Of a stretch of 46,231 bases of DNA, positions 1-46,231 are shown piece by piece; the first letter of the stretch is position 1, and every line of letters starts with the position of its first letter. Under the pieces are notes generated by a model. The model was not told the origin of the DNA and made no database searches. It worked only from the letters and a program-made list of their open reading frames with translations. The stretch lies in IMG/VR virus record IMGVR_UViG_3300042090_001045; one strand, given 5' to 3'. The translations under genes and the position numbers were made by a program. This stretch comes from a virus.

Positions 1-98
1 AAGAAGTAGATCACATTAACGGTGTGAGACTCGATAACCGAAAAAGCAATTTACGGTTTTGCGATAGGAAAGGAAATACCAGAAACACTACTTTACGA
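1..98. repeat. Terminal overlap identical to 46134-46231; contig closes into a 46133-bp unit
   Basis: Base-by-base identity of the first and last 98 nt of the window. The overlap lies inside a coding sequence that reads in frame through the junction. Confidence 0.95.
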
Positions 99-4067: not shown

Positions 4068-4284
4068 TCCAGTAACCAAGGAGTTCCGGCGTTATATGAC
4101 ATCCCTTATCGCTGATGCGGCGAGCGCATGGACAAAAGGTGAATTTACGGAGGGCAGAACGCCCGAAATGATCGCGCTTTTGAACTACGCCGCCGTCGAG
4201 AAGATCAAGACGCTACACCGTGTGGCGGCGCTTGACCATCAGGAATACGTCGATTTTATTAGGGATATCGAAGATGACGAATGA
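4024..4284 (+). CDS. Hypothetical head-module protein
   Basis: 86-aa ORF with ATG start, overlapping the portal 3' end. Confidence 0.5.
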   Translation: MATVSKEQWAEWLGDPVTKEFRRYMTSLIADAASAWTKGEFTEGRTPEMIALLNYAAVEKIKTLHRVAALDHQEYVDFIRDIEDDE

Positions 4285-4585
4285 ATCGGGTTTCCATCCT
4301 GTAGGGTTCCGCGTGCTAGTTCTGCCAGATGCGGTTGACGAGAAGACCGCGGGGGGCATCATTATCGCCCGTGATACCAAAGGCCGCGAAGATATGGCGC
4401 AGGTCAAAGGTACTGTTGTCGAAGTTGGCCCTTGTTGTTGGGACAACCAGAGTACGTCGAACTGGGCAAAGGCGGGAGACCGCATTGTTTTCGGTAAGTA
4501 TTCCGGTTTGGCTTACAAAGGCAAAGACGGCAAAGACTATCGAATCATCAACGATACCGATGTCGTTGGCTTGGAGGACGCATAA
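4274..4585 (+). CDS. GroES/Cpn10-like co-chaperonin
   Basis: ORF 4220-4585 trimmed to ATG 4274. FRVLVLPDAVDEKTAGGIIIA...VKGTVVEVGP...KAGDRIVFGKYSG...IINDTDVVG aligns by eye with the GroES pattern (RVIVK..E.KSAGGIVL...G.V.AVG...VGD.V.F..Y.G......I..E.DIL). Confidence 0.75.
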   Translation: MTNESGFHPVGFRVLVLPDAVDEKTAGGIIIARDTKGREDMAQVKGTVVEVGPCCWDNQSTSNWAKAGDRIVFGKYSGLAYKGKDGKDYRIINDTDVVGLEDA

Positions 4586-23345: not shown

Positions 23346-24730
23346 GTTCAGGCTACTTCAATCAATTCGGTGTCGATCTTGACGGCTGGTTCGGACCGTT
23401 GGGTGGGGGCATTTCGACGCACAAGGTAGGCTACCAAGTAGCGGGGCAAGACCTTAACTTGCGCTATTGGCCGCTAAGTCTTGGGGGGATTCAAGTGCCG
23501 CCGACGGGCTTCTACTGGCATGGTCAGGATCTGAATACGATTTTCGGCTGGCCCCCGATTACGGCGGTGAATCTGGAAGTTTTTTTGATTCAATCCCAAC
23601 CGTTGGACGGCGCGATAGTTTCTACTTTTGACGCCCAAGGCGCAGTAACACAAAATAAATATTACGCGACCGGCGGCATCGGAACCTTATTTGGCGACAA
23701 TATCCCCGCCGGGGCGGTTATACAACCCTCGCTCCCGGTTACGATTGTAAATCTTACGGGGCCTTACGGTATCGCCCCGGCAATGCCGACAAATGCGCAG
23801 ACGGGTACCGCATTAGGTTTCAGAATTAATAACGGGGACGGTACTTATAGTACTTTATTGGAAAAATACCCAACAGCGGTATTTACAGTAACCGCTAGCA
23901 CCCCCGGCGCGTCTGCCGCGTTGGGGGGCGACCTACCGGGGCTGGGCGTAACCGTAGTCGTTGGGGCTGTTCAAGTACTGGAAAATAACAGCGGCGCTAG
24001 TTTCAAGATAGAAGTTCCCTCAGCAACCCCCGGAAACCCGCCCACCCTGTTGTACTTTGCCAGCATTTGCCGCAAGCCGCCGACAGAAATAGTACCCATA
24101 GCTAACGTGACTAGCGCAATCGCGCACGTCGGTCTTCCGCTCTCGACACCTGCTAGTGGTCTGCAAGACCCTATCGCCGCTACGTCTAGCGCGATTTGGC
24201 AACCGGGAACCAACATAATAGCGCTGTCGGTGAACGCGACGGCGGCCAATAGAGTGCCATTGCCCCCAACAACTGACCCCGCCACAGCCGCCGCAACTAT
24301 AGCGGTTGTTTACACCGGGGGCGGCGGGAGTGGGGTCGATTATTGGGGCATCGACCCCACTAACTTATTTACCGAAGAAACCGTAGTAGTGAACCGAACA
24401 GGCAGCACCCTATCCGGCGTGCCCTTATGGGCCGCTAACGGGCCGGGGGTCGGCGTTTTCTCTAGGGGCGGGTTCACTGGCGACTCCCACAGCCCTGTGT
24501 GGGTGGCGGGCACGACAACCAATGATTCTAACCCAAATCTACCCCCGATAAACGGCGACCCGTCAGACGGACTCAACGGCTTGCTAAACCGAGTTTTGCT
24601 GTGTCAGTCTAAATTAGCTTTTGAAGGCGATAAACTTGACATCCTTGGGGATTATTATATAGTCGACACGTCCGCGATGAATAGATTCGTGTACACAAAT
24701 TCCGGTACTCTCCAATACACAGGATCATGA
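23342..24730 (+). CDS. Hypothetical large protein (possible second receptor-binding or tail-associated protein)
   Basis: ORF trimmed to ATG 23342 (MSSGYFNQ...), 462 aa, between the fibre genes and the lysis cassette. No motif recognised. Confidence 0.55.
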   Translation: MSSGYFNQFGVDLDGWFGPLGGGISTHKVGYQVAGQDLNLRYWPLSLGGIQVPPTGFYWHGQDLNTIFGWPPITAVNLEVFLIQSQPLDGAIVSTFDAQGAVTQNKYYATGGIGTLFGDNIPAGAVIQPSLPVTIVNLTGPYGIAPAMPTNAQTGTALGFRINNGDGTYSTLLEKYPTAVFTVTASTPGASAALGGDLPGLGVTVVVGAVQVLENNSGASFKIEVPSATPGNPPTLLYFASICRKPPTEIVPIANVTSAIAHVGLPLSTPASGLQDPIAATSSAIWQPGTNIIALSVNATAANRVPLPPTTDPATAAATIAVVYTGGGGSGVDYWGIDPTNLFTEETVVVNRTGSTLSGVPLWAANGPGVGVFSRGGFTGDSHSPVWVAGTTTNDSNPNLPPINGDPSDGLNGLLNRVLLCQSKLAFEGDKLDILGDYYIVDTSAMNRFVYTNSGTLQYTGS

Positions 24731-25176
24731 ACGAAATCGACTTTGAAACGCTCATCACCGAACTGCGGCGGGATGAAGGCGTGCGCTACAGCCGCTACAC
24801 CGATCACCTTGGCAACTGGACTATTGGCGTCGGGCACAACATCGACGCCGATGCCAAATACCCTTTCACAAAGCAACAAGAACCCCTTAACGACAATCAA
24901 GTGAATAAGCTATTAGCGGATGACATTGATAGCGTTATGAATGATCTGAACCGCAACGTACCGTGGTGGACAGAGCTGTCCGGCACGCGGCAACGTGTAT
25001 TGGCTAACATGTGTTTCAACATGGGCTGGCCTACGCTAGCGACCTTCACCAACACGTTGAAATGCATTCAAACGGGCGATTATTCGCAAGCGGCGATCAA
25101 TATGCTGGCTTCGAAATGGGCTAAACAGGTTGGCGGGCGCGCCGTTCGTTTGGCCGACATGATGAAGGTGGGCTGA
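24727..25176 (+). CDS. Endolysin, T4-lysozyme-like (GH24)
   Basis: LRRDEGVRYSRYTDHLGNWTIGVGHNI matches the E-x8-D-x5-T catalytic pattern of T4 lysozyme ([22 protein letters not shown]). Confidence 0.85.
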   Translation: MNEIDFETLITELRRDEGVRYSRYTDHLGNWTIGVGHNIDADAKYPFTKQQEPLNDNQVNKLLADDIDSVMNDLNRNVPWWTELSGTRQRVLANMCFNMGWPTLATFTNTLKCIQTGDYSQAAINMLASKWAKQVGGRAVRLADMMKVG

Positions 25177-25177
25177 C

Positions 25178-25411
25178 ATGAACTTGGGAGAATGGTTCAA
25201 ACAAATCGTTACCGAAGCAGATGGGGAAACCCACAGCATGCAGCGGTGGATGGGTTTGTACGCCTTCTTCCATTTTCACGTCATGCAAATCGTAAATGTG
25301 TTCCACTTACACCAGCCTTTTGACTCAGCCGCCTACGGTGGCGGTTTAGCGGCGATGATGGCGGCTACGGCTGTCATGCTCGGCCTTGCGCCGGGGGAGA
25401 AGAAAGAATGA
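25178..25411 (+). CDS. Holin candidate
   Basis: 77 aa with two hydrophobic segments and a charged C-terminus, between the endolysin and spanin genes. Confidence 0.5.
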   Translation: MNLGEWFKQIVTEADGETHSMQRWMGLYAFFHFHVMQIVNVFHLHQPFDSAAYGGGLAAMMAATAVMLGLAPGEKKE

Positions 25412-25932
25412 TTCTTGAATTTCTAAAAGCGTACTGGAAATGGATCGCGGCGGCTTTGGCCGTCGTTTTCTTTTACGTGCTGGCCTATGAACGTGGGGCG
25501 TCTCATGTAGAAAAACTATGGGACGCGCAGAAGGCTAAAGACGCGCAAGCTATCGCCAAGCTCGTAGAGAAGCAAACGGTCGTCACTACGCAAGTGGTGA
25601 CGCAATACGTTGACCGCGTGCAAGTCGTTCACGAGAAAGCACAGGTCATTACTAAAGAGGTGCCGGTCTATGTCACTCAATCGGATGACGCTCGTTGTAC
25701 TATCAACAATGGCTTTGTCAGCGTGTGGAACGCCGCAAACGCTAATGTGCCCCTTCCCGCAACCGCCGACGGAACTAATGAAGCCGCCAGCGGGGTTAAG
25801 CTCTCAGACGTTGCAGCCCAGCACAGCAACGAAGCCGAATACGCCCACCAACTCGAAGAGCAACTAATCGCCCTGCAAGCTTGGGTAAAAGCGCAACAGG
25901 AGGCCGCTAATGCCGCGCAAGCCAGCCGCTAA
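25408..25932 (+). CDS. i-spanin (Rz-like)
   Basis: 174 aa with an N-terminal TM helix (WKWIAAALAVVFFYVLAY), a charged helical periplasmic part, and an embedded lipoprotein ORF. Confidence 0.7.
   Translation: MILEFLKAYWKWIAAALAVVFFYVLAYERGASHVEKLWDAQKAKDAQAIAKLVEKQTVVTTQVVTQYVDRVQVVHEKAQVITKEVPVYVTQSDDARCTINNGFVSVWNAANANVPLPATADGTNEAASGVKLSDVAAQHSNEAEYAHQLEEQLIALQAWVKAQQEAANAAQASR
25670..25867 (+). CDS. o-spanin (Rz1-like lipoprotein) embedded in the +1 frame of the i-spanin gene
   Basis: MSLNRMTLVVLSTMALSAC lipobox followed by a Pro-rich mature part (PFPQPPTELMKPP). ORF 25610-25867 trimmed to ATG 25670. Confidence 0.7.
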   Translation: MSLNRMTLVVLSTMALSACGTPQTLMCPFPQPPTELMKPPAGLSSQTLQPSTATKPNTPTNSKSN

Positions 25933-39078: not shown

Positions 39079-39087
39079 TTTATGTGC

Positions 39088-39185
39088 CTACCAGAAAAAT
39101 GCGATCAGGATTAACCCTAATACCGGCAACCAAGCTGGGGTTAGCGCGCACAAAATTAAAATTGCCGATTCAACTTTATAGTATT

Positions 39186-39189
<4 letters not shown>
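39088..39189 (-). CDS. Hydrophobic mini-protein (33 aa) ATGA-coupled to the last GY-repeat gene
   Basis: Hand-translated MKYYKVESAILILCALTPAWLPVLGLILIAFFW. Its start shares the conserved CGATGAAATAC junction. Confidence 0.45.
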
Positions 39190-39487
<298 letters not shown>

Positions 39488-39491
<4 letters not shown>

Positions 39492-39733
39492 CGCGTCACC
39501 ATTCGATAAGGGTACGCACCCCAGCCGTTGCCGTAGCCGTAGCCGTAGCCGTAGCCGTGGCCGTCGCCGTAGCCGTAGCCGTAGCCGTCGCCGTAGCCGT
39601 CGCCGTTGCCGTTGCCGTTGCCGTAGCCGTAGCCGTAGCCGTAGCCGTCGCCGTAGCCGTTGCCGTCGCCGTGGCCGTGGCCGTGGCCGTGGCCGTGGCC
39701 GTTGCCGTGGCCGTGGCCGTCTGGGTATTTCAT
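39488..39733 (-). CDS. (Gly-X)n GY-repeat protein A2 (81 aa), with N-terminal Gly-His tract
   Basis: MKYPDGHGHGNGHGHGHGHGHGDG...GWGAYPYRMVTR. ATGA overlaps at both ends. Confidence 0.75.
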
Positions 39734-40005
39734 CGCGTCACCATTCGGTAAGGGTAAGCGCCCCAGCCGTAGCCGCTGCCGTTGCCGCTGCCGTTGCCGT
39801 CGCCGTTGCCGTAGCCGTAGCCGTAGCCGTAGCCGTCGCCGTAGCCGTTGCCGTAGCCGTAGCCGTCGCCGTAGCCGTAGCAGTAGCCGTAGCCGCTGCC
39901 GTTGCCGTAGCCGTCGCCGTAGCCGTCGCCGTAGCCGTTGCCGTAGCCGTTGCCGTAGCAGTAGCCGCTGCCGTTGCCGTCGCCGTAGCCCTTTGGGTAT
40001 TTCAT
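39730..40005 (-). CDS. (Gly-X)n GY-repeat protein A3 (91 aa)
   Basis: ORF 39730-40074 trimmed to ATG 40005 (MKYPKGYGDGNG...GWGAYPYRMVTR). That ATG overlaps the TGA of the vWA gene (ATGA). Confidence 0.75.
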   Translation of the reverse strand: MKYPKGYGDGNGSGYCYGNGYGNGYGDGYGDGYGNGSGYGYCYGYGDGYGYGNGYGDGYGYGYGYGNGDGNGSGNGSGYGWGAYPYRMVTR

Positions 40006-41057
40006 CGAGTCACCACATCTACGCCGCCGAGCGCCGCCGCCAATTTGGTAGCCCCGCAACCTATCGGCACACACAGGACTTTGCTTTTTTGTTTGTGGAC
40101 TCCTTCCGGCACCGGGTCACCGTCCGTAATGACAATGGCAAGTTTCGGTGTGGTTTTTTGCAGATGTTGAGAAATCAAATGATAAGGCGTATCACCTCCG
40201 CCGCCCGGGTCTTTGGCTACGAGTTTCCCGTTGCCAAAAAACCACACATCAGCGCGGATGGTCGCGCCGTACCGTTGCAAGAGCGCACGCAATTGGCTTT
40301 CTGCATGCGCGGTTTTCTCGGCGGTGAACGAACCGCTGCGGTCAACGAATATCTCTACGAGTGGCGGACGTGGTGTTGAGACCGCGCCCGCCGCCAAGAT
40401 ACTGCTATCCTGGTGGCGACGCGACGGGCGGCGGTAAGACTTTTCCCGGGTTACGCGCGAACGGAGCGCAGCATCCACTTCGTCGGTAAGCGTAGGCGGG
40501 CGGTTCTTTGCCAAAGCATAGGCACTAGCAGCCGCAGCTTGAGCCTCTTTTGCGTTTTCTTCCGCGTCCAGCTTCTCCCGCACCGCTTGGAGCACGCCGA
40601 TATCAGCAGGGGCGGCGCTTTCTCCCCCTTGCCCGTCGCCCGAGCAGCAACTGCAACACATTTTAGCCGTCTGCGGTTGTTGCTCGGGGTTGTCGAGAAG
40701 CCACTGATAAATATCTTCGGCCAACACAACATCGGGCGGCAAGCCCTCGTAAGTGTCAGGGAGATAGCCGCCCGTCAGCCGTGAGCGGGGCGCAGTGATA
40801 TTTTGAATATCTTGCTCATCGTAAATCGTGCGAGCAATTTCCATTTCACACGCCGCCGCCCACACGTCGTGGCGGCAGTCCTTGGGCGTACGCGCGTTGT
40901 GCCGCGCCCACACATGCGCTTGTTCGTGGCGCAGTGTCGTGCGGTATTCGGGCTTGTTGAGTTCGGACGCGATATAGATGCGCGTAAAATCCGTCATACC
41001 CGGCGCGCCGATCTCTTCCAAGGGCTTGCGTACAACAGGGGCGGCGGTGAGTTCCAT
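40002..41057 (-). CDS. vWA-domain protein with N-terminal HExxH metallopeptidase-like domain (DUF2201-type architecture)
   Basis: 351 aa. HEQAHV zinc motif, a central Cys cluster (MCCSCCSGDG), MIDAS-like VDRSGS and VITDGD in the C-terminal half. Confidence 0.8.
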   Translation of the reverse strand: MELTAAPVVRKPLEEIGAPGMTDFTRIYIASELNKPEYRTTLRHEQAHVWARHNARTPKDCRHDVWAAACEMEIARTIYDEQDIQNITAPRSRLTGGYLPDTYEGLPPDVVLAEDIYQWLLDNPEQQPQTAKMCCSCCSGDGQGGESAAPADIGVLQAVREKLDAEENAKEAQAAAASAYALAKNRPPTLTDEVDAALRSRVTREKSYRRPSRRHQDSSILAAGAVSTPRPPLVEIFVDRSGSFTAEKTAHAESQLRALLQRYGATIRADVWFFGNGKLVAKDPGGGGDTPYHLISQHLQKTTPKLAIVITDGDPVPEGVHKQKSKVLCVPIGCGATKLAAALGGVDVVTR

Positions 41058-41840
41058 TTAGACCCTCAGAATTTTGGCGGTTTTGGCGGCAACGCCGGAA
41101 CGGCGAACCGAAGACGTAGCCTTACTCAACACCTCATTATCCGCTTTGCGGATGAAGTGCATGATTTGGCTGGCGGTAGCGGGCGTCAGCAGGCCGCGAA
41201 CCAACGTATCGACGCTATCTTCTTCGGCACCGCGTTGGATCGCCTGAAGGGCCATTGCCAGTGTGCGGGGCGTGGTGATACGACGATCGAGCCCTTCGCC
41301 AGTCATATCAAATACCGGCATCTCGCCATTGCGCACGCTTTCGATCACACGGTTAGCCGCGGGCGTATTGAACTTCGTCTTCGCCCATGCTGCCCACTTA
41401 CCCACGTCCGGTACGTAATCGATCACTGCGAACCGGGAAAGCATGGCGTCGCCAATCCCGTCGCCCCCGCCGAATTCGGGCGGGTTAGCGGCCGCAACGA
41501 TACAAGTATCCTCGGGCAGCGCCGCCGAGCCGACTTGCCGAGATGCGACGAGCGTGAGCAAAGTGTCGGCTACCGAGCGGCGAGCCTTGTCCAGTTCGTC
41601 AAGAAAGAGCACCGTAGTCTTCCCGGCGGCGCTCGCCTCGTGCAGACGGCGAAAGATGCTTGGCACGGTGCGGTAATCGTAATCCCCCTCGCGGTACGGA
41701 AGGCCTGCGATATCTTCCTCAACCAAGGTGGAAGTCAATACGATTTCTGCGTGTTCGAAATGGGCGCGCACACTTGCGGTTTTGCCCACGCCCGGCGCGC
41801 CTACCAACAGCACAGGAATTTCCGGCGAAAACAGGTTCAT
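41058..41840 (-). CDS. MoxR-like AAA+ ATPase
   Basis: 260 aa. Walker A LLVGAPGVGKT, Walker B VLFLDELD. Directly precedes the vWA partner gene. Confidence 0.8.
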   Translation of the reverse strand: MNLFSPEIPVLLVGAPGVGKTASVRAHFEHAEIVLTSTLVEEDIAGLPYREGDYDYRTVPSIFRRLHEASAAGKTTVLFLDELDKARRSVADTLLTLVASRQVGSAALPEDTCIVAAANPPEFGGGDGIGDAMLSRFAVIDYVPDVGKWAAWAKTKFNTPAANRVIESVRNGEMPVFDMTGEGLDRRITTPRTLAMALQAIQRGAEEDSVDTLVRGLLTPATASQIMHFIRKADNEVLSKATSSVRRSGVAAKTAKILRV

Positions 41841-42337
41841 GATGGGTTCCTCAAATTAAGTAAATATTGTTCACGAGCATCGCGGGCTTCTTCCGGGGTG
41901 CGATAAGTGCCTATATGTTTCGAAATACCGTTTATGCATACTTGGGCGCGGAATCCAGTCCCGTTACGACTTACTCCTATGTAAGGTATTTCTCCGTAAG
42001 CAACGTGCATGTTTTGCATATTGATCGTTTGAGGTACGTCGCGAAGGTTAATAAACCGGTTATCGTTTTTTACTCCGTTGATGTGGTCTATGTGGAATTT
42101 AGGCCAATTACCGGTTTGCAGCGCCCAAGCTACCCGGTGCGCAAAATACTCTTTGCGTTTCAAGATTACCTTCACATATCCGCCAACTGTTATTTTCCCA
42201 GCGGGTCGGTCTAAATACCTCCCGCTTCCAGAAAACCGCCACCATAAATCGCCGGTGGCGGGGTCGTAACGCATATGCTCACGGAAAACGTTTAACGTTT
42301 CTTCGGTTTCTTTTGCCGCCCGCTGTTCAAACGTCAT
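41837..42337 (-). CDS. HNH endonuclease with AP2 domain (second copy in the genome)
   Basis: ORF trimmed to ATG 42337. HIDHINGVKNDNRFINLRDV HNH core and an AP2-like YIGVSRNGTGFRAQVCINGISKHIGTYRTPEEARDAREQY. ATGA-coupled to the AAA+ gene. Confidence 0.8.
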   Translation of the reverse strand: MTFEQRAAKETEETLNVFREHMRYDPATGDLWWRFSGSGRYLDRPAGKITVGGYVKVILKRKEYFAHRVAWALQTGNWPKFHIDHINGVKNDNRFINLRDVPQTINMQNMHVAYGEIPYIGVSRNGTGFRAQVCINGISKHIGTYRTPEEARDAREQYLLNLRNPS

Positions 42338-42385
42338 TTTCCTGTCCAAGATGTTTAAAGGATCAGGATATCACAATTCAAGGGA

Positions 42386-42661
42386 TCAGCGCAAGGTGGA
42401 GCCTTTGAAGGCGTACAGATCAACTGAGTCCGCGATTGCATACACCGCCGAGATCGGAAACAGCACTTCGGTTTCCGGATCGAAACGGTCAAGATTGACC
42501 GTCATGTCTTTGTCGCCGCGTGCGAGGCCGGGCATGCCTTTGCCCCCGGAGAAGCCACCAAACATAGCGGCGTTCTTGAGCGCCACATAGCCTTCCGGCG
42601 CGGTCACCTCAGTGCCGAAGTAGTAGAAGCCACCGGCAACCGTTACGATTTTCGTGTTCAT
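42386..42661 (-). CDS. Hypothetical protein
   Basis: 91-aa ORF with ATG start and GAGGAA upstream. Confidence 0.55.
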   Translation of the reverse strand: MNTKIVTVAGGFYYFGTEVTAPEGYVALKNAAMFGGFSGGKGMPGLARGDKDMTVNLDRFDPETEVLFPISAVYAIADSVDLYAFKGSTLR

Positions 42662-42719: not shown

Positions 42720-42803
42720 TTACTTACTAAGCCACAACGCCAACCCTACGACAACGGCTAAAGCTGTAGCGTGGATCAAACCGGCGATTAGGGGAATCAG
42801 CAT
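42720..42803 (-). CDS. Hydrophobic mini-protein (27 aa)
   Basis: Hand-translated MLIPLIAGLIHATALAVVVGLALWLSK. RBS AAGGAG 7 nt upstream. Confidence 0.4.
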   Translation of the reverse strand: MLIPLIAGLIHATALAVVVGLALWLSK

Positions 42804-42839: not shown

Positions 42840-43270
42840 GTGAGTCTATGGTAGTCTATGACTACTTTTTGATGCTAATTGATTTTAGCTATGTGATTTT
42901 AGGATTGATCGTTGATCGCTATGCGAATGCGTAATTCTTGCGAGTTTGTAGTCAGTAGCCAAGCTTTTGGACGTTTGTAGCATACCGGTCTGCTACGCGG
43001 AAACCCTTGCGGCGTGGGCGTTTGCGGGAGTGTAGCTAACGTAGTCAACCTATTACTATTAATTTGATTATATATAGGGAGAGGGGGGTACATAGCTACG
43101 CCGTAGACAGTGCATAAATATGTGTAGGGGTAATTAATAGGGTTTTTGCGACTACATTGACTACAAATCGCTGGAACCCCTTATGCGGCGCGGGTTTCGG
43201 CGTAGTTGTCCGGTACGACTACATTCAGCTACTACAACTACATTGACTACAATGCGTAATTTTTGCGGGT
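42840..43270. promoter_or_regulatory. Non-coding block rich in GACTAC/GTAGTC iterons and palindromes, with an AT-rich core (origin and/or operator cluster candidate)
   Basis: GTAGTCtatGACTAC (42851-42865); tandem TTGATCG x2 (42904-42917); AT-rich tattactattaatttgattatatatag (43051-43078); GACTACAttGACTACAA (43150-43166); GACTACAttcagctACTACAACTACAttGACTACAA (43217-43252); ATGCGTAATTyTTGCGrGTTT twice (about 42925 and about 43251). Confidence 0.6.
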
Positions 43271-43285
43271 TTCGCAAGGGGAGCG

Positions 43286-43315
43286 TGAAAAGAGAAACGG
43301 CCCTTGCGGGCCGTT
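43286..43315 (-). terminator. Rho-independent terminator ending the second GY-array operon
   Basis: Minus sense: AACGGCCC-GCAA-GGGCCGTT followed by TCTCTTTTC. Lies about 15 nt after the stop of the 35-aa ORF. Confidence 0.75.
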
Positions 43316-43331
43316 AGGGGTTGGGGCGGTG

Positions 43332-43439
43332 TTAGAAGAACATTTTGGATATAGCTAACGCAGCGAACGCTATCATGAAAATACTGGCGCTCAGCACAAA
43401 CACGCAGAAACAAAAACGTTCAAATTTACCCATTTTCAT
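43332..43439 (-). CDS. Hydrophobic mini-protein (35 aa)
   Basis: Hand-translated MKMGKFERFCFCVFVLSASIFMIAFAALAISKMFF. ATGA-coupled to the upstream mini-ORF. Confidence 0.4.
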   Translation of the reverse strand: MKMGKFERFCFCVFVLSASIFMIAFAALAISKMFF

Positions 43440-43573
43440 TCTCCGTAATTGGTTTCCCACCAAGCGCTCAGCAGGCTGGCTATGCCGCATGCGATAGCCC
43501 ACTGGATAAGGATTGAGCCGTCGTACAACAGACCGCAGCCCAAACTGATACAGAAAATTGCTACGTAATGCAT
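43436..43573 (-). CDS. Hydrophobic mini-protein (45 aa)
   Basis: Hand-translated MHYVAIFCISLGCGLLYDGSILIQWAIACGIASLLSAWWETNYGE. GAGGAA 7 nt upstream. Confidence 0.4.
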   Translation of the reverse strand: MHYVAIFCISLGCGLLYDGSILIQWAIACGIASLLSAWWETNYGE

Positions 43574-43583
43574 TTTGTGTTCC

Positions 43584-43640
43584 TCATCGCGTTATTAAAT
43601 GGTAGGGGTAACGGACCCAGCCGCCGTCTGGGTAGTTCAT
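43584..43640 (-). CDS. Cap-only mini-ORF of the GY family (18 aa; possibly a repeat-collapsed remnant)
   Basis: MNYPDG-GWVRYPYHLITR: N-cap joined directly to a diverged C-cap with no repeat body. ATGA-coupled to B2 through the same 55-nt junction used between B1 and B2. Confidence 0.4.
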   Translation of the reverse strand: MNYPDGGWVRYPYHLITR

Positions 43641-43918
43641 CTCGTCACCATTCGGTAAGGGTACGCACCCCAGCCGTCGCCGCCGCCGTAGCCGTAGCCG
43701 TAGCTGTAGCCGTAGCTGTAGCCGTAGCCGTTGCCGTAGCCGTAGCTGTAGCCGTAGCTGTAGCCGTAGCCGTTGCCGTCGCCGTAGCCGTCGCCGTAGC
43801 CGTAGCCGTCGCCGTCGCCGTAGCCGTAGCCGTCGCCGTCGCCGTCGCCGCCGCCGTCGCCGCCGCCGTCGCCGTAGCCGTTGCCGTTGCCGTCGCCGTA
43901 GCCGTCTGGGTAGTTCAT
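43637..43918 (-). CDS. (Gly-X)n GY-repeat protein B2 (93 aa)
   Basis: MNYPDGYGDGNGNGYGDGGGDGGGDGDGDGYGYG...YSYGYSYGYGYGGGDGWGAYPYRMVTR. ATGA overlaps at both ends. Confidence 0.75.
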   Translation of the reverse strand: MNYPDGYGDGNGNGYGDGGGDGGGDGDGDGYGYGDGDGYGYGDGYGDGNGYGYSYGYSYGYGNGYGYSYGYSYGYGYGGGDGWGAYPYRMVTR

Positions 43919-44154
43919 CTCGTCACCATTCGGTAAGGGTACGCACCCCAGCCGTAGCCGTAGCCGCCGCAGATCGCCCCGCCGCCGCCGTAGCTGTCGC
44001 CGTCGCCGTCGCCGTCGCCGTAGCCGTAGCCGGTGCCGTAGCCGTCGCCGTAGCCGTCGCCGTAGCCGTAGCCGTAGCCGCAGCCGTAGCCGTAGCCGTC
44101 GCCGTAGCCGTTGCCGTAGCCGTTGCCGTAGCCGTTGCCCTTTGGGTATTTCAT
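43915..44154 (-). CDS. (Gly-X)n GY-repeat protein B1 (79 aa)
   Basis: ORF trimmed to ATG 44154 (MKYPKGNGYGNG...GGGGAICGGYGYGWGAYPYRMVTR). That ATG overlaps the TGA of the upstream membrane-protein gene. Confidence 0.75.
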   Translation of the reverse strand: MKYPKGNGYGNGYGNGYGDGYGYGCGYGYGYGDGYGDGYGTGYGYGDGDGDGDSYGGGGAICGGYGYGWGAYPYRMVTR

Positions 44155-44432
44155 CTTTCCATATCCCAAGGTTGCGTTGAGTCGAGTCGCATGCTGTAGC
44201 GTTCGTAGGAGGGTTTATCGGCGGCGCTTATCGGCCCGCGCATCGCGCTCGCTTCCGCCTCGGCGAGCCCGTCGTACATACGTTTGGCATGATCCTGTTC
44301 GCGCAACCGGAGCCACTTGTCAGCGTGCCGCGTGTAGAGTTTGTTGGTGATTTTGATATCGATGAGAGCGATAGCGCCGACCAGCACCGCCGCCGCTAAG
44401 ATGAAAGCAATTACGCATAGCGTAAATGTCAT
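44151..44432 (-). CDS. Single-pass membrane protein (93 aa), first gene of the minus arm
   Basis: ORF 44151-44615 trimmed to ATG 44432 preceded by AAGGAGAA. N-terminal TM helix MTFTLCVIAFILAAAVLVGAIALI followed by a charged tail. Confidence 0.6.
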   Translation of the reverse strand: MTFTLCVIAFILAAAVLVGAIALIDIKITNKLYTRHADKWLRLREQDHAKRMYDGLAEAEASAMRGPISAADKPSYERYSMRLDSTQPWDMER

Positions 44433-44514
44433 GATGGTTCTCCTTAAAAGTTGTCGCTGACTACTATTGTAGACTTTGCCTATTTTTTGTGCACTAGTAT
44501 TTACCCTAAGCTGT

Positions 44515-44940: not shown

Positions 44941-44978
44941 TCCAAAAGAAAAGGCCCGCAACCGTTAAGCTGCGAGCC
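44941..44978 (-). terminator. Orphan rho-independent terminator (minus strand) in the arm-divergence region
   Basis: Minus sense: GGCTCGCA-loop-TGCGGGCC (7 of 8 pairs) followed by TTTTCTTTTGG. No annotated gene lies upstream. Confidence 0.5.
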
Positions 44979-45319
44979 TGAAAAATTCCTTGCCGTATTA
45001 TTACGAACGTTGCGGACGCCCCCGTCGCGCATTTAGCCCGTTCATGTCCGGGCGGAGGAGGCTTACATTTCGTGGCGTCCTGCCGGTGTTTTTACCCACC
45101 TCCGGCTGGGGCATGAAAACGAACTACGCTAATTTTACAATGCGAAACCGCCCCTTGTTCGCAAACTTCCAAGCATGGTAAGCGACCGAAGGCGTATTGC
45201 CTATGCCGGTCAAGCCGTCGAGATGACAGCGCCACAAGCCTTGTGTGAACCAGATTCGAGGTTTCGGCAATTCCATTGTATAATCCTTTTCAAGCAAATG
45301 ACAGTTGAGCCCTCAAACC

Positions 45320-45946: not shown

Positions 45947-46231
45947 ATGACCGAAATCTATACACGTAAGGGCATAGCCATTCTTGTTGACGATGAGGAT
46001 TACGATAGACTGAATGCGTATACTTGGCGGCTCGACAGAAACGGTTACGCAATGCGCAGTTTGAAAATTGGCGAAAGGTACACCAACCAATACATGGCAC
46101 GTGAGATTGCGGGGACGTGTATTGGCGACGGGAAAGAAGTAGATCACATTAACGGTGTGAGACTCGATAACCGAAAAAGCAATTTACGGTTTTGCGATAG
46201 GAAAGGAAATACCAGAAACACTACTTTACGA
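45947..46231 (+). CDS. HNH/AP2 endonuclease, 5' part (continues at 99-278 after the circular junction)
   Basis: ATG 45947 (MTEIYTRKGIAILVDDEDYDRLNAYTWRLDRNGYAMR...). Open to the window end, in frame with 1-278. Confidence 0.85.
   Translation, partial: MTEIYTRKGIAILVDDEDYDRLNAYTWRLDRNGYAMRSLKIGERYTNQYMAREIAGTCIGDGKEVDHINGVRLDNRKSNLRFCDRKGNTRNTTLR
46134..46231. repeat. Terminal overlap, second copy of 1-98
   Basis: Identical to bases 1-98. Confidence 0.95.

What the first reader, a model, noticed from the sequence alone, without database searches (positions are those of the whole stretch)
43584..44154. Second GY-repeat array 3.6 kb away, headed by a membrane-protein gene and closed by a terminator
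Two more full-length family members (79 and 93 aa) plus a cap-only mini-ORF form a separate operon: a 93-aa single-pass membrane protein, B1, B2, the mini-ORF, a 45-aa and a 35-aa hydrophobic peptide, then a rho-independent terminator.

This is the first transcription unit of the early arm, which suggests very early expression. The B1/B2 junction and the B2/mini junction are identical over 55 nt (43901-43955 and 43623-43677), which indicates recent duplication or gene conversion. Keeping two dispersed arrays in a 46-kb genome argues for selection rather than a chance microsatellite.
Basis: seen in the sequence. Interest (0 to 1): 0.85.

Follow-up and report, generated by a model that had tools for sequence, protein, structure and literature searches.

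The report
Phage Gly-Tyr miniprotein gene array
A second, recombining cluster of tiny glycine-tyrosine repeat protein genes in a complete, uncultured phage genome belongs to an unannotated protein family that sits beside a conserved chaperone-protease gene pair in many related phages, so it is real and selected, but its function is still unknown.

Summary
On the minus strand, 44432..43296 carries a 93-aa membrane-anchored protein, B1 (79 aa), B2 (93 aa), an 18-aa caps-only ORF, two hydrophobic peptides and a terminator. The two junctions are identical over exactly 55 nt.

The repeats are protein-coding in the G-X frame. Related phages change the synonymous positions (GGC to GGA, NAC to NAT) but keep Gly-[Tyr/Asp/Asn]. 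The opposite-strand (Ala-Val)n reading is not conserved.

The proteins form an unannotated family: an MKYPxG cap, a (G-X)n core and a YPYxLVTR cap. They occur as 1 to at least 6 tandem, translationally coupled genes. In about 20 phages and prophages of Burkholderiales and Xanthomonadales the array sits beside a module of p91, a MoxR AAA+ ATPase and an HExxH-peptidase/VWA protein, down to 37% VWA identity.

The membrane-protein-headed array B was found in only one close relative. Another assembly of the same phage lacks exactly B2. This fits unequal recombination at the 55-nt junctions.

My best mechanism is inferred, not shown: these are disordered, acidic, self-associating Gly/Tyr miniproteins that serve as dedicated substrates or clients of the MoxR-VWA-peptidase. 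Early expression is only a positional inference.

The parts
44151..44432 (-). TM93: a 93-aa protein with an N-terminal membrane anchor. It is the first gene of the B operon and its stop overlaps the B1 start (ATGA).
   Evidence: AAGGAG ribosome-binding site; hydropathy 3.04 over residues 6-24. One search found an identical protein and a 62%-identical 130-aa homologue. No Pfam, PHROG, NCBIfam or PADLOC family matched.
43915..44154 (-). B1: a 79-aa GY miniprotein (MKYPKG cap, (G-X)n core, GWGAYPYRMVTR cap).
43637..43918 (-). B2: a 93-aa GY miniprotein with net charge about -10. It is absent from a second assembly of the same phage.
   Evidence: AlphaFold2 gave pLDDT 34.
43584..43640 (-). Caps-only mini-ORF, MNYPDGGWVRYPYHLITR (18 aa). 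It is most likely a decayed terminal copy. Its C-cap resembles the RYPYHLVTR form found in relatives.
   Evidence: Truncated or degenerate terminal members also occur in L004, L007, L009 and L013.
43901..43955 (.). 55-nt junction repeat, copy 1 (B1/B2 junction).
   Evidence: exact identity with 43623-43677.
43623..43677 (.). 55-nt junction repeat, copy 2 (B2/mini junction). It is the probable substrate for the unit deletion or duplication.
43436..43573 (-). 45-aa hydrophobic peptide.
43332..43439 (-). 35-aa hydrophobic peptide (33 aa if it starts at the second ATG). The upstream start overlaps the preceding stop (ATGA).
43286..43315 (-). Intrinsic-terminator-like hairpin with a T-rich tail that closes the operon.
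44466..44493 (-). Sigma-70-like promoter candidate (TGCACA-16-TACAAT) upstream of TM93. The evidence is weak.
   Evidence: 9 of 12 matches; the number of sites found is no higher than in shuffled sequence.
39186..40005 (-). Array A: A3 (40005..39730, 91 aa), A2 (39733..39488, 81 aa) and A1 (39491..39186, 101 aa). All belong to the same family.
39088..39189 (-). 33-aa hydrophobic peptide that follows array A through an ATGA overlap. It starts MKY, like the N-cap.
40002..41057 (-). 351-aa protein with an N-terminal HExxH domain and a C-terminal VWA domain. Its stop overlaps the A3 start.
   Evidence: weak DUF2201_N and DUF2201 matches. H44, E45, H48, D239, S241 and S243 are invariant in 29 homologues; pLDDT 83.7, and the top structural matches are VWA domains.
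41058..41840 (-). 260-aa MoxR-type AAA+ ATPase.
   Evidence: AAA_5 at 39.1 bits against a cut-off of 22; phrog_1297.
42386..42661 (-). p91: a 91-aa protein of unknown function. It is the fourth conserved member of the module.
   Evidence: homologues lie next to the AAA/VWA genes in most of the relatives examined, including the most distant ones (VWA 37-42% identity).

Best explanation
SHOWN:
- 43584-44154 holds two full genes and one decayed gene of a real, translated protein family. Each member has an N-cap M-K/N-Y-P-x-G, a core of alternating Gly and Tyr/Asp/Asn, and a C-cap Y-P-Y-x-L/M-V-T-R.
- The genes lie head to tail with ATGA stop/start overlaps. They evolve in concert, through slippage and unequal recombination at the conserved junctions.
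- This explains the 55-nt identity, the B2-less variant and the wide range of copy number and length among relatives.
- In related phages the family lies beside a module of p91, a MoxR AAA+ ATPase and an HExxH-metallopeptidase/VWA protein.

INFERRED:
- The GY proteins are disordered, acidic, Tyr-'sticker'/Gly-'spacer' polypeptides that self-associate.
- They are the dedicated substrates or clients of that machine. The VWA metal site would bind their Asp residues or their caps. The AAA+ ring would remodel them and the HExxH domain would cut them.
- Array B is a second, promoter-proximal source of the same substrate. It arose by copying array A units (the B1 head equals the A3 head, and the B2 head is close to the A1 head). 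It is co-translated with small membrane proteins, probably early in infection.
- What the processed or assembled product does to the host is unknown.
For: Coding frame:
- In this window the repeat uses GGC/TAC/GAC/AAC almost exclusively.
- L007 uses GGC with TAT/GAT/AAT. L011 uses mostly GGA.
- G-[Y/D/N] is kept in every lineage, while the alternative frames change: (AV)n becomes (AI)n and (AT)n becomes (AM)n.

Caps:
- Y-P-Y and M-x-Y-P are invariant while their codons vary freely (TAC/TAT, all four CCN codons).

Residue choice at the X position:
- Counts are Y 291, N 152, D 132, against H 9, F 9 and C 3.
- His and Cys are the transition neighbours of TAC, so the excess of Asp and Asn points to selection on chemistry.

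Family and synteny:
- Arrays were found in 9 viral, 8 metagenome and 3 genome loci.
- Wherever enough flanking sequence was available, the array lay directly after the VWA gene.
- The link persists at VWA identities of 37-44%, with diverged caps: MKVLPxG...YPHNLIVKVG, MKRLPNG and MKKLPKG...KYPHSLMV.
- A complete Cupriavidus oxalaticus chromosome carries five tandem members.

The machine looks active:
- HExxH and the DxSxS metal site are invariant in 29 homologues.
- The fold is VWA and the ATPase matches AAA_5.

Array dynamics:
- The junction identity is exactly 55 nt.
- B2 is precisely absent from ENA k141_5347.
- The first member after TM93 is 29 aa in L024 and 79 aa here.
- Near-identical peat-bog contigs carry 3 or at least 6 copies, and one member is 133 aa.

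Precedents in the literature:
- Phage MoxR-vWA chaperone pairs with an N-terminal metallopeptidase have been described (PMC7824862).
- vWA-MoxR systems have been linked to a zincin peptidase and a small, rapidly diverging protein with a conserved C-terminus (PMC7159879).
- GYGYGYG heptapeptides self-assemble into amyloid-like fibrils (PMC8163036).
- AlphaFold2 gave pLDDT 34 with no secondary structure, which is consistent with disorder.
Against: - There is no expression, interaction or cleavage data of any kind.
- Array B is 3.6 kb from the machine, in another operon, next to membrane proteins that the relatives lack.
- L002 keeps p91, AAA and VWA but has no array at that position, so the machine may have other or additional substrates.
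- Member length ranges from 18 to 133 aa, which argues against a precise structural role.
- GY repeats of the same composition occur in other phage early proteins with no MoxR/VWA neighbour. The repeat itself may therefore act independently of the machine.
- The low pLDDT came from a 5-sequence alignment and cannot separate disorder from an unpredictable assembly.
- The nearly invariant GTG-ACG-CGA-TGA at the C-terminus may be conserved as the next gene's ribosome-binding site and start rather than as protein.
Confidence: 0.4

Rival explanations
1. Peptide-precursor reading. The GY genes are precursors of a released peptide, either a toxin or a signal. The HExxH domain cuts at the caps, and the small hydrophobic proteins of the B operon act as immunity or export helpers, as in glycine-rich microcin clusters.
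For: - The genes are small, tandem and hypervariable, with short conserved ends.
- An invariant HExxH lies next door.
- PMC7159879 gives a precedent for a zincin peptidase paired with a small variable protein in vWA-MoxR systems.
- In this genome hydrophobic peptides follow both arrays.
Against: - The proteins have no leader peptide; the repeat starts at residue 7.
- No exporter, radical-SAM or other modifying enzyme was found among the ORFs that were scanned.
- In relatives the arrays are not followed by membrane peptides.
- No defence or toxin model matched.
Confidence: 0.15
2. Host-directed decoy reading. These are early, acidic, Gly-rich 'slippery' polypeptides that jam or titrate a host factor, such as an AAA+ protease, a defence sensor or a DNA-binding enzyme. 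They would act independently of the phage MoxR-VWA pair.
For: - The operon sits at the promoter-proximal end of the replication arm.
- The proteins are small and acidic, with net charge -3 to -10.
- Similar GY repeats occur in early regions of unrelated phages that lack the module.
Against: - This reading does not explain the deep, conserved adjacency and translational coupling to the VWA gene.
- No target is known.
- There is no homology to any known anti-defence protein.
Confidence: 0.15
3. Nucleic-acid-level reading. The (GGCNAC)n tracts act as DNA or RNA, for example as a recombination hotspot, a contingency locus, or a sink for tRNA and amino acids, and the peptides are incidental.
For: - Codon use within a genome is extremely uniform: 179 of 183 Gly codons are GGC, against 48% GGC genome-wide.
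- Many assemblies break inside the arrays.
- The X codons are almost all NAY.
Against: - Lineages differ at the synonymous positions but keep the amino acids.
- The caps show protein-level conservation with synonymous change.
- Distant members such as those in L033 are barely repetitive, yet they keep the caps and the genomic position.
- There are no Rfam matches and no tRNA genes.
Confidence: 0.04
4. Opposite-strand reading. The real genes are the plus-strand (Ala-Val)n ORFs, for example 43568..43936 (122 aa).
For: - These ORFs are listed.
- In this genome the variable base falls at the Val wobble position.
Against: - B1 has no plus-strand ORF with a start codon.
- In L007 the same frame reads (Ala-Ile)n, so it is not conserved.
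- The ribosome-binding sites, ATGA overlaps, caps and all neighbouring genes are on the minus strand.
Confidence: 0.01

Closest known systems
MoxR AAA+ / VWA chaperone-cochaperone pairs with dedicated clients. Examples I recall are CbbQ-CbbO, NorQ-NorD and RavA-ViaA. PMC7824862 describes the ATV tail system and the phage MoxR-vWA pairs that carry an N-terminal metallopeptidase.
   Same: An AAA_5-type ATPase gene sits next to a VWA protein with an intact DxSxS metal site and an N-terminal HExxH domain. The architecture matches the one described for phages.
   Different: No small Gly-Tyr repeat partner has been reported for those pairs, and their clients are large enzymes or virion proteins. Here the candidate client is a tandem array of miniproteins plus a conserved 91-aa protein. 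Client status is inferred from synteny only.
vWA-MoxR-associated peptide-processing systems: a zincin metallopeptidase with a small, rapidly diverging protein that has a conserved C-terminal motif, such as FxSxx-COOH (PMC7159879).
   Same: A zincin-type HExxH peptidase is linked to vWA and MoxR, together with small, fast-diverging proteins whose ends are the conserved part.
   Different: This system is in phages rather than actinobacterial conflict systems. No radical-SAM enzyme or AP-ATPase effector was seen. The peptidase is fused to the VWA protein. The small proteins are Gly-Tyr repeats in multi-copy arrays. Cleavage has not been tested.
Prion-like / FUS-type [G/S]Y[G/S] low-complexity domains, and synthetic GYGYGYG 'prion-inspired' peptides (PMC8163036, PMC10510724).
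   Same: The composition is about 42% Gly and 20-25% Tyr with Asn and Asp, and the proteins are predicted to be unstructured. (X-Tyr)n peptides are known to self-assemble.
   Different: These are free-standing 18-133-aa proteins with conserved caps and a strict period of 2. They are acidic and encoded in tandem gene arrays. Self-assembly has not been shown.
Period-2 (Gly-X)n fibrous proteins, namely silk fibroin and the high-glycine-tyrosine keratin-associated proteins.
   Same: Gly alternates with X, and the proteins are rich in Tyr. Other GY hits reach Pfam KRTAP.
   Different: This is compositional resemblance only. B1 and B2 score below every Pfam threshold. They are intracellular phage proteins and there is no homology.
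Collagen-like or polyglycine-II repeat proteins of phages (Gly every third residue).
   Same: They are glycine-rich repeats in phage genomes. VWA domains are classic collagen binders (structural matches to vWF A3 and integrin I domains).
   Different: The period here is 2 residues (6 nt), not 3. The genes are also not in the tail-fibre module.

Membership tests
GY-cap miniprotein family (defined here from about 20 loci) | N-cap M-[KNRI]-Y-P-x-G directly followed by the repeat | tested here: met
   B1 has MKYPKG; B2 and the mini-ORF have MNYPDG. Across relatives there are 22 distinct N-cap sequences with invariant M, Y, P and G.
GY-cap miniprotein family (defined here from about 20 loci) | Core of alternating Gly and Tyr/Asp/Asn | tested here: met
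   B1 and B2 meet this; the mini-ORF has no core.
GY-cap miniprotein family (defined here from about 20 loci) | C-cap Y-P-Y-x-[LM]-V-T-R at the C-terminus | tested here: met
   B1 and B2 end in GWGAYPYRMVTR. The mini-ORF ends in RYPYHLITR, a near match.
GY-cap miniprotein family (defined here from about 20 loci) | Located directly downstream of the VWA/HExxH gene | tested here: not met
   Array A meets this. Array B instead follows TM93, an arrangement shared only with L024.
Pfam TrAA12-like (PF22807) / KRTAP (PF11759) | Score at or above the curated gathering threshold | tested here: not met
   B1 scores 21.9 bits and B2 15.6 bits against a cut-off of 30.9. The match is to a low-complexity stretch of the profile.
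Any PHROG, NCBIfam or PADLOC family | A significant profile match | tested here: not met
   There was no PHROG match and no PADLOC match. NCBIfam gave only a compositional match to a serine-rich model, 19 bits against a cut-off of 650.
MoxR-VWA chaperone pair (neighbouring genes) | AAA_5/MoxR-type ATPase domain | tested here: met
   PF07728 scores 39.1 bits against a cut-off of 22.
MoxR-VWA chaperone pair (neighbouring genes) | VWA fold with a DxSxS metal site | tested here: met
   D239, S241 and S243 are invariant in 29 homologues. Foldseek's top matches are VWA domains with probability 1.00 and E-values from 4e-4. The Pfam DUF2201 score is below its cut-off (19.3 against 26.4).
vWA-MoxR-linked peptide-processing system (PMC7159879) | Zincin-type HExxH metallopeptidase | tested here: inconclusive
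   H44, E45 and H48 are invariant. However, DUF2201_N scores 20.2 bits, below its cut-off of 23.2, and no solved peptidase matched.
vWA-MoxR-linked peptide-processing system (PMC7159879) | Small, rapidly diverging protein with a conserved C-terminal motif that is cleaved off | not testable with these tools
   The sequence pattern fits. Cleavage needs biochemistry.
vWA-MoxR-linked peptide-processing system (PMC7159879) | Associated radical-SAM enzyme or AP-ATPase effector | tested here: not met
   None was found among the neighbours or the larger ORFs scanned.
Prion-like / FUS-type low-complexity domain | Dense [G/S]Y[G/S] motifs and disorder | tested here: inconclusive
   The motif density is obvious from the sequence. 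pLDDT was 34 from a shallow alignment. Phase separation or fibril formation cannot be tested here.
Class II microcin / glycine-rich bacteriocin cluster | Double-glycine leader peptide and a dedicated exporter | tested here: not met
   The repeat begins at residue 7 and there is no leader. No exporter was found among the ORFs scanned.
Collagen-like / polyglycine-II repeat | Gly every third residue | tested here: not met
   The period is 6 nt, which is 2 residues.
Intrinsic (rho-independent) terminator | G+C-rich hairpin followed by a T run | tested here: met
   43315..43296 has 8 pairs, 6 of them G-C, and a TCTCTTTT tail. Function has not been tested.

The most novel reading that the evidence does not exclude
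A previously unrecognised four-part phage system may be widespread in phages of Burkholderiales and Xanthomonadales. It would comprise p91, a MoxR AAA+ ATPase, an HExxH-peptidase/VWA protein, and hypervariable tandem arrays of prion-like Gly-Tyr miniproteins. In this reading the ATPase-peptidase machine controls the assembly or processing of self-associating Gly-Tyr polypeptides, as a condensate or amyloid-like material, inside the infected cell. The array copy number would be tuned by recombination at the conserved junctions.
Probability: 0.2. Interest if true: 0.85.

Novelty: new variant of a known kind. Interest (0 to 1): 0.62.

Why it matters
If the linkage is functional, the orphan phage MoxR-VWA-metallopeptidase pairs gain a concrete candidate substrate. 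It is small, easy to synthesise and easy to test. It would also be a natural case of virus-encoded, copy-number-variable, prion-like Gly/Tyr polypeptides in bacteria.

The locus is also a clean example of concerted evolution in a tandem gene family. Synonymous changes have swept through whole arrays, which gives an internal proof of the reading frame.

On the practical side, these arrays break short-read assemblies and are missed by annotation. The family has no match in Pfam, PHROGs, NCBIfam or PADLOC. A search of 1.84 billion protein representatives found only one protein with the caps.

Tried and rejected
Searches that found nothing useful:
- Megablast of the region and of the whole genome against 50,697 phage records gave no relatives.
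- tblastn of the VWA protein against the same records gave no match.
- A protein search with B2 and a profile search of 1.84 billion representatives returned only generic GY low-complexity proteins fused to unrelated domains such as DUF7666. Only P0092 carries the caps.
- My first cap pattern was too strict and gave 0 matches.
- TM93 has no relatives in IMG/VR. A pattern for the TM93/B1 junction gave 0 matches there.
- Pfam, PHROGs, NCBIfam and PADLOC do not recognise the GY proteins, TM93, the hydrophobic peptides or p91.
- Rfam gave no match and there are no tRNA genes.
- Solved-structure sequence searches gave only generic AAA matches for the ATPase and nothing for the VWA protein.
- Literature searches found no description of this family.

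Prediction that did not help:
- AlphaFold2 on B2 gave no confident structure.

Readings considered and rejected:
- Opposite-strand (Ala-Val)n and shifted (Ala-Thr)n frames.
- A collagen-like or polyglycine-II fold, because the period is wrong.
- A role for the hydrophobic peptides in the lysis cassette, because the endolysin and spanin genes lie at 24727-25932.
- An idea based on queuosine-decoded NAY codons. His is rare, and L007 switches from NAC to NAT with no change in the protein.

Full report
**What is there**

The window is a complete, circularly closed phage genome. Its first and last 98 nt are identical, so the unique length is 46,133 bp. It has no close relative among 50,697 deposited phage records.
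- The plus arm carries terminase, portal, capsid, tail, endolysin and spanin genes.
- The minus arm carries helicase, DNA polymerase, a gp2.5-like SSB, exonuclease and primase-helicase genes.
  - TM93 at 44432..44151
  - B1 at 44154..43915
  - B2 at 43918..43637
  - an 18-aa caps-only ORF at 43640..43584
  - a 45-aa hydrophobic peptide and a 35-aa one (33 aa from its second ATG)
  - a hairpin with a T tail at 43315..43296
- The GY genes start at ATGA stop/start overlaps.
- The two junctions, 43901-43955 and 43623-43677, are identical over exactly 55 nt.

**Is it a gene, and in which frame**

- An open frame through (GGCNAC)n proves nothing, since five of the six frames cannot contain a stop.
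- In this genome every Gly is GGC and every Tyr, Asp and Asn codon is NAC. The variable base therefore also falls at the wobble position of an opposite-strand (Ala-Val)n reading and of a shifted (Ala-Thr)n reading.
- Relatives settle the question.
  - L007, a Luteibacter prophage, uses GGC with TAT/GAT/AAT.
  - L011 uses mostly GGA with TAC/GAC/AAC.
  - Gly-[Tyr/Asp/Asn] is preserved in all of them, while the other frames change meaning.
- In the caps, Y-P-Y and M-x-Y-P are invariant while their codons vary freely.
- At the X positions, Tyr (291), Asn (152) and Asp (132) dominate. His (9) and Cys (3), the transition neighbours of TAC, are rare. This points to selection on chemistry.
- The final GTG-ACG-CGA-TGA is nearly invariant even at the DNA level. 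It doubles as the next gene's GGTGA ribosome-binding site and ATGA start.

**The family**

- A pattern built on the junction recovered arrays in 9 viral, 8 metagenome and 3 genome loci. These include a Luteibacter chromosome and a Paraburkholderia MAG contig.
- Members are 18-133 aa long and occur in 1 to at least 6 tandem copies. A complete Cupriavidus oxalaticus chromosome has five.
- Terminal copies are often truncated or degenerate. The mini-ORF is therefore best read as a decayed end copy. Its C-cap, RYPYHLITR, resembles the form seen in relatives rather than this genome's homogenised GWGAYPYRMVTR.
- No Pfam, PHROG, NCBIfam or PADLOC family recognises these proteins.
- A profile search of 1.84 billion representatives found only generic GY low-complexity proteins and one capped relative.

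**Array dynamics**

- Within a genome, the codons and caps are homogeneous. Between genomes they differ. This is concerted evolution.
- The B1 head matches the A3 head, and the B2 head differs from the A1 head by one base. Array B therefore looks like a copy of array A units.
- Another assembly of the same phage (ENA k141_5347) joins B1 straight to the mini-ORF. It lacks exactly the unit between the two 55-nt repeats.
- In a relative that looks about 88% identical by eye over the TM93 gene (L024), the TM93 homologue is also followed, through an ATGA overlap, by a GY gene. That gene is only 29 aa, and a second one follows it.
- The TM93-headed array is therefore conserved in at least two phages. 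Six more distant relatives have no second array within 3-5 kb upstream of p91.
- Many contigs end inside arrays, so copy numbers from short-read assemblies are uncertain.

**Linkage**

- In relatives the array directly follows a 351-aa protein, and in this window that gene's stop overlaps the A3 start. That protein is preceded by a MoxR-type AAA+ ATPase and a conserved 91-aa protein.
- The 351-aa protein has an invariant HExxH motif and an invariant DxSxS metal site across 29 homologues. Its confident model (pLDDT 83.7) matches VWA domains.
- The association persists at VWA identities of 37-44%. There the small proteins have diverged caps (MKVLPxG...YPHNLIVKVG, MKRLPNG, MKKLPKG...KYPHSLMV) and some are barely repetitive. 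The gene order also varies.
- L002 keeps the three other genes but has no array at that position.
- The conserved unit is therefore p91, a MoxR ATPase, an HExxH/VWA protein and GY genes.

**How it most likely works**

Shown: a translated, selected, recombining gene family tied by synteny to an apparently active ATPase/peptidase-VWA pair.

Inferred: the GY proteins are disordered, acidic Tyr/Gly polypeptides (pLDDT 34; net charge -3 to -10) that self-associate, as synthetic (X-Tyr)n peptides do. I propose that they are the dedicated substrates or clients of the machine.

Two published parallels support this:
- Phage MoxR-vWA pairs with an N-terminal metallopeptidase.
- vWA-MoxR systems coupled to a zincin peptidase and a small, fast-diverging protein with a conserved C-terminus.

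Array B would supply the same substrate from the first operon of the replication arm, together with small membrane proteins. I put this explanation at 0.4.

Rivals:
- A released toxin or signal peptide with immunity-like membrane partners (0.15).
- A host-directed decoy that acts independently of the machine (0.15).
- A nucleic-acid-level role (0.04).
- Opposite-strand genes (0.01).

**Verdict**

Selection and recent recombination are supported, early timing is untested, and the key genomic linkage was missed.
- The family is unannotated, and its pairing with a MoxR-VWA-peptidase module appears undescribed. I rate it a new variant of a known kind.
- The function remains unknown. Interest: 0.62.

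Noticed in passing
window 1-98 and 46134-46231: The first and last 98 nt of the window are identical. The sequence is therefore a circularly closed assembly with a unique length of 46,133 bp. An HNH-type gene between the two terminase subunit genes spans the join.
   Followed up: partly
window 41837-42349 (-): A 170-aa HNH endonuclease (phrog_99, E 1e-45) sits between p91 and the AAA+ gene. In relatives such as L031, L032 and L033, p91 lies directly next to the AAA+ gene. This looks like a homing-endonuclease insertion into the module.
   Followed up: partly
window 42900-43330: The 430-nt gap after the B terminator holds two exact copies of ACTACATTGACTACAA (43151-43166 and 43237-43252) plus weaker copies. 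There were 4 matches with up to 3 mismatches, against 0.36 expected. They may be regulator or promoter sites for the next minus-strand operon.
   Followed up: partly
window 44952-44979 (-): A strong terminator-like hairpin (12 pairs followed by TTTCTTTT) lies inside the 870-nt divergent control region upstream of the B operon. Its role is unknown.
   Followed up: no
window about 4220-4585 (+); L027 3715-4026: The structural arm encodes a 103-aa Cpn10/GroES-like protein (PF00166 in the gene table of the identical ENA contig). This is a phage-encoded co-chaperonin.
   Followed up: no
window 39088-39189 (-), 42720-42803 (-), 43332-43573 (-): At least four very small hydrophobic peptide genes (27-45 aa) are scattered through the early arm. 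Both GY arrays are immediately followed by one. The peptide after array A starts MKY, like the N-cap.
   Followed up: partly
P0002, P0010, P0019, P0024; L037, L038: The same GYGDGYG-type repeat is fused to unrelated domains in other phage early-region proteins. Examples are DUF7666 and a recurrent C-terminal 'IGC...W' domain. These proteins have no MoxR/VWA neighbour. GY repeats may be a recurrent module of phage proteins.
   Followed up: partly
L001, L003, L024, L026, L030, L034 and other contig ends: Many metagenome contigs end inside GY arrays. Several 'complete' viral contigs are linearised there. The arrays are systematic breakpoints for short-read assemblies, so their copy numbers are unreliable.
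   Followed up: partly
window 43568-43936 (+), 39084-39509 (+), 39660-40379 (+): Long plus-strand ORFs that read (Ala-Val)n or (Arg-Ser/Cys)n are by-products of the repeat. They could be mis-called as genes.
   Followed up: yes
L032 3785-3883: A distant relative has a 32-aa mini GY gene (MKRLPNGDGYGNGYGYGYGYYPYSMMVSYAVT) between its AAA+ and VWA genes, as well as a 78-aa member after the VWA gene. Very short members are therefore not unique to this window.
   Followed up: no
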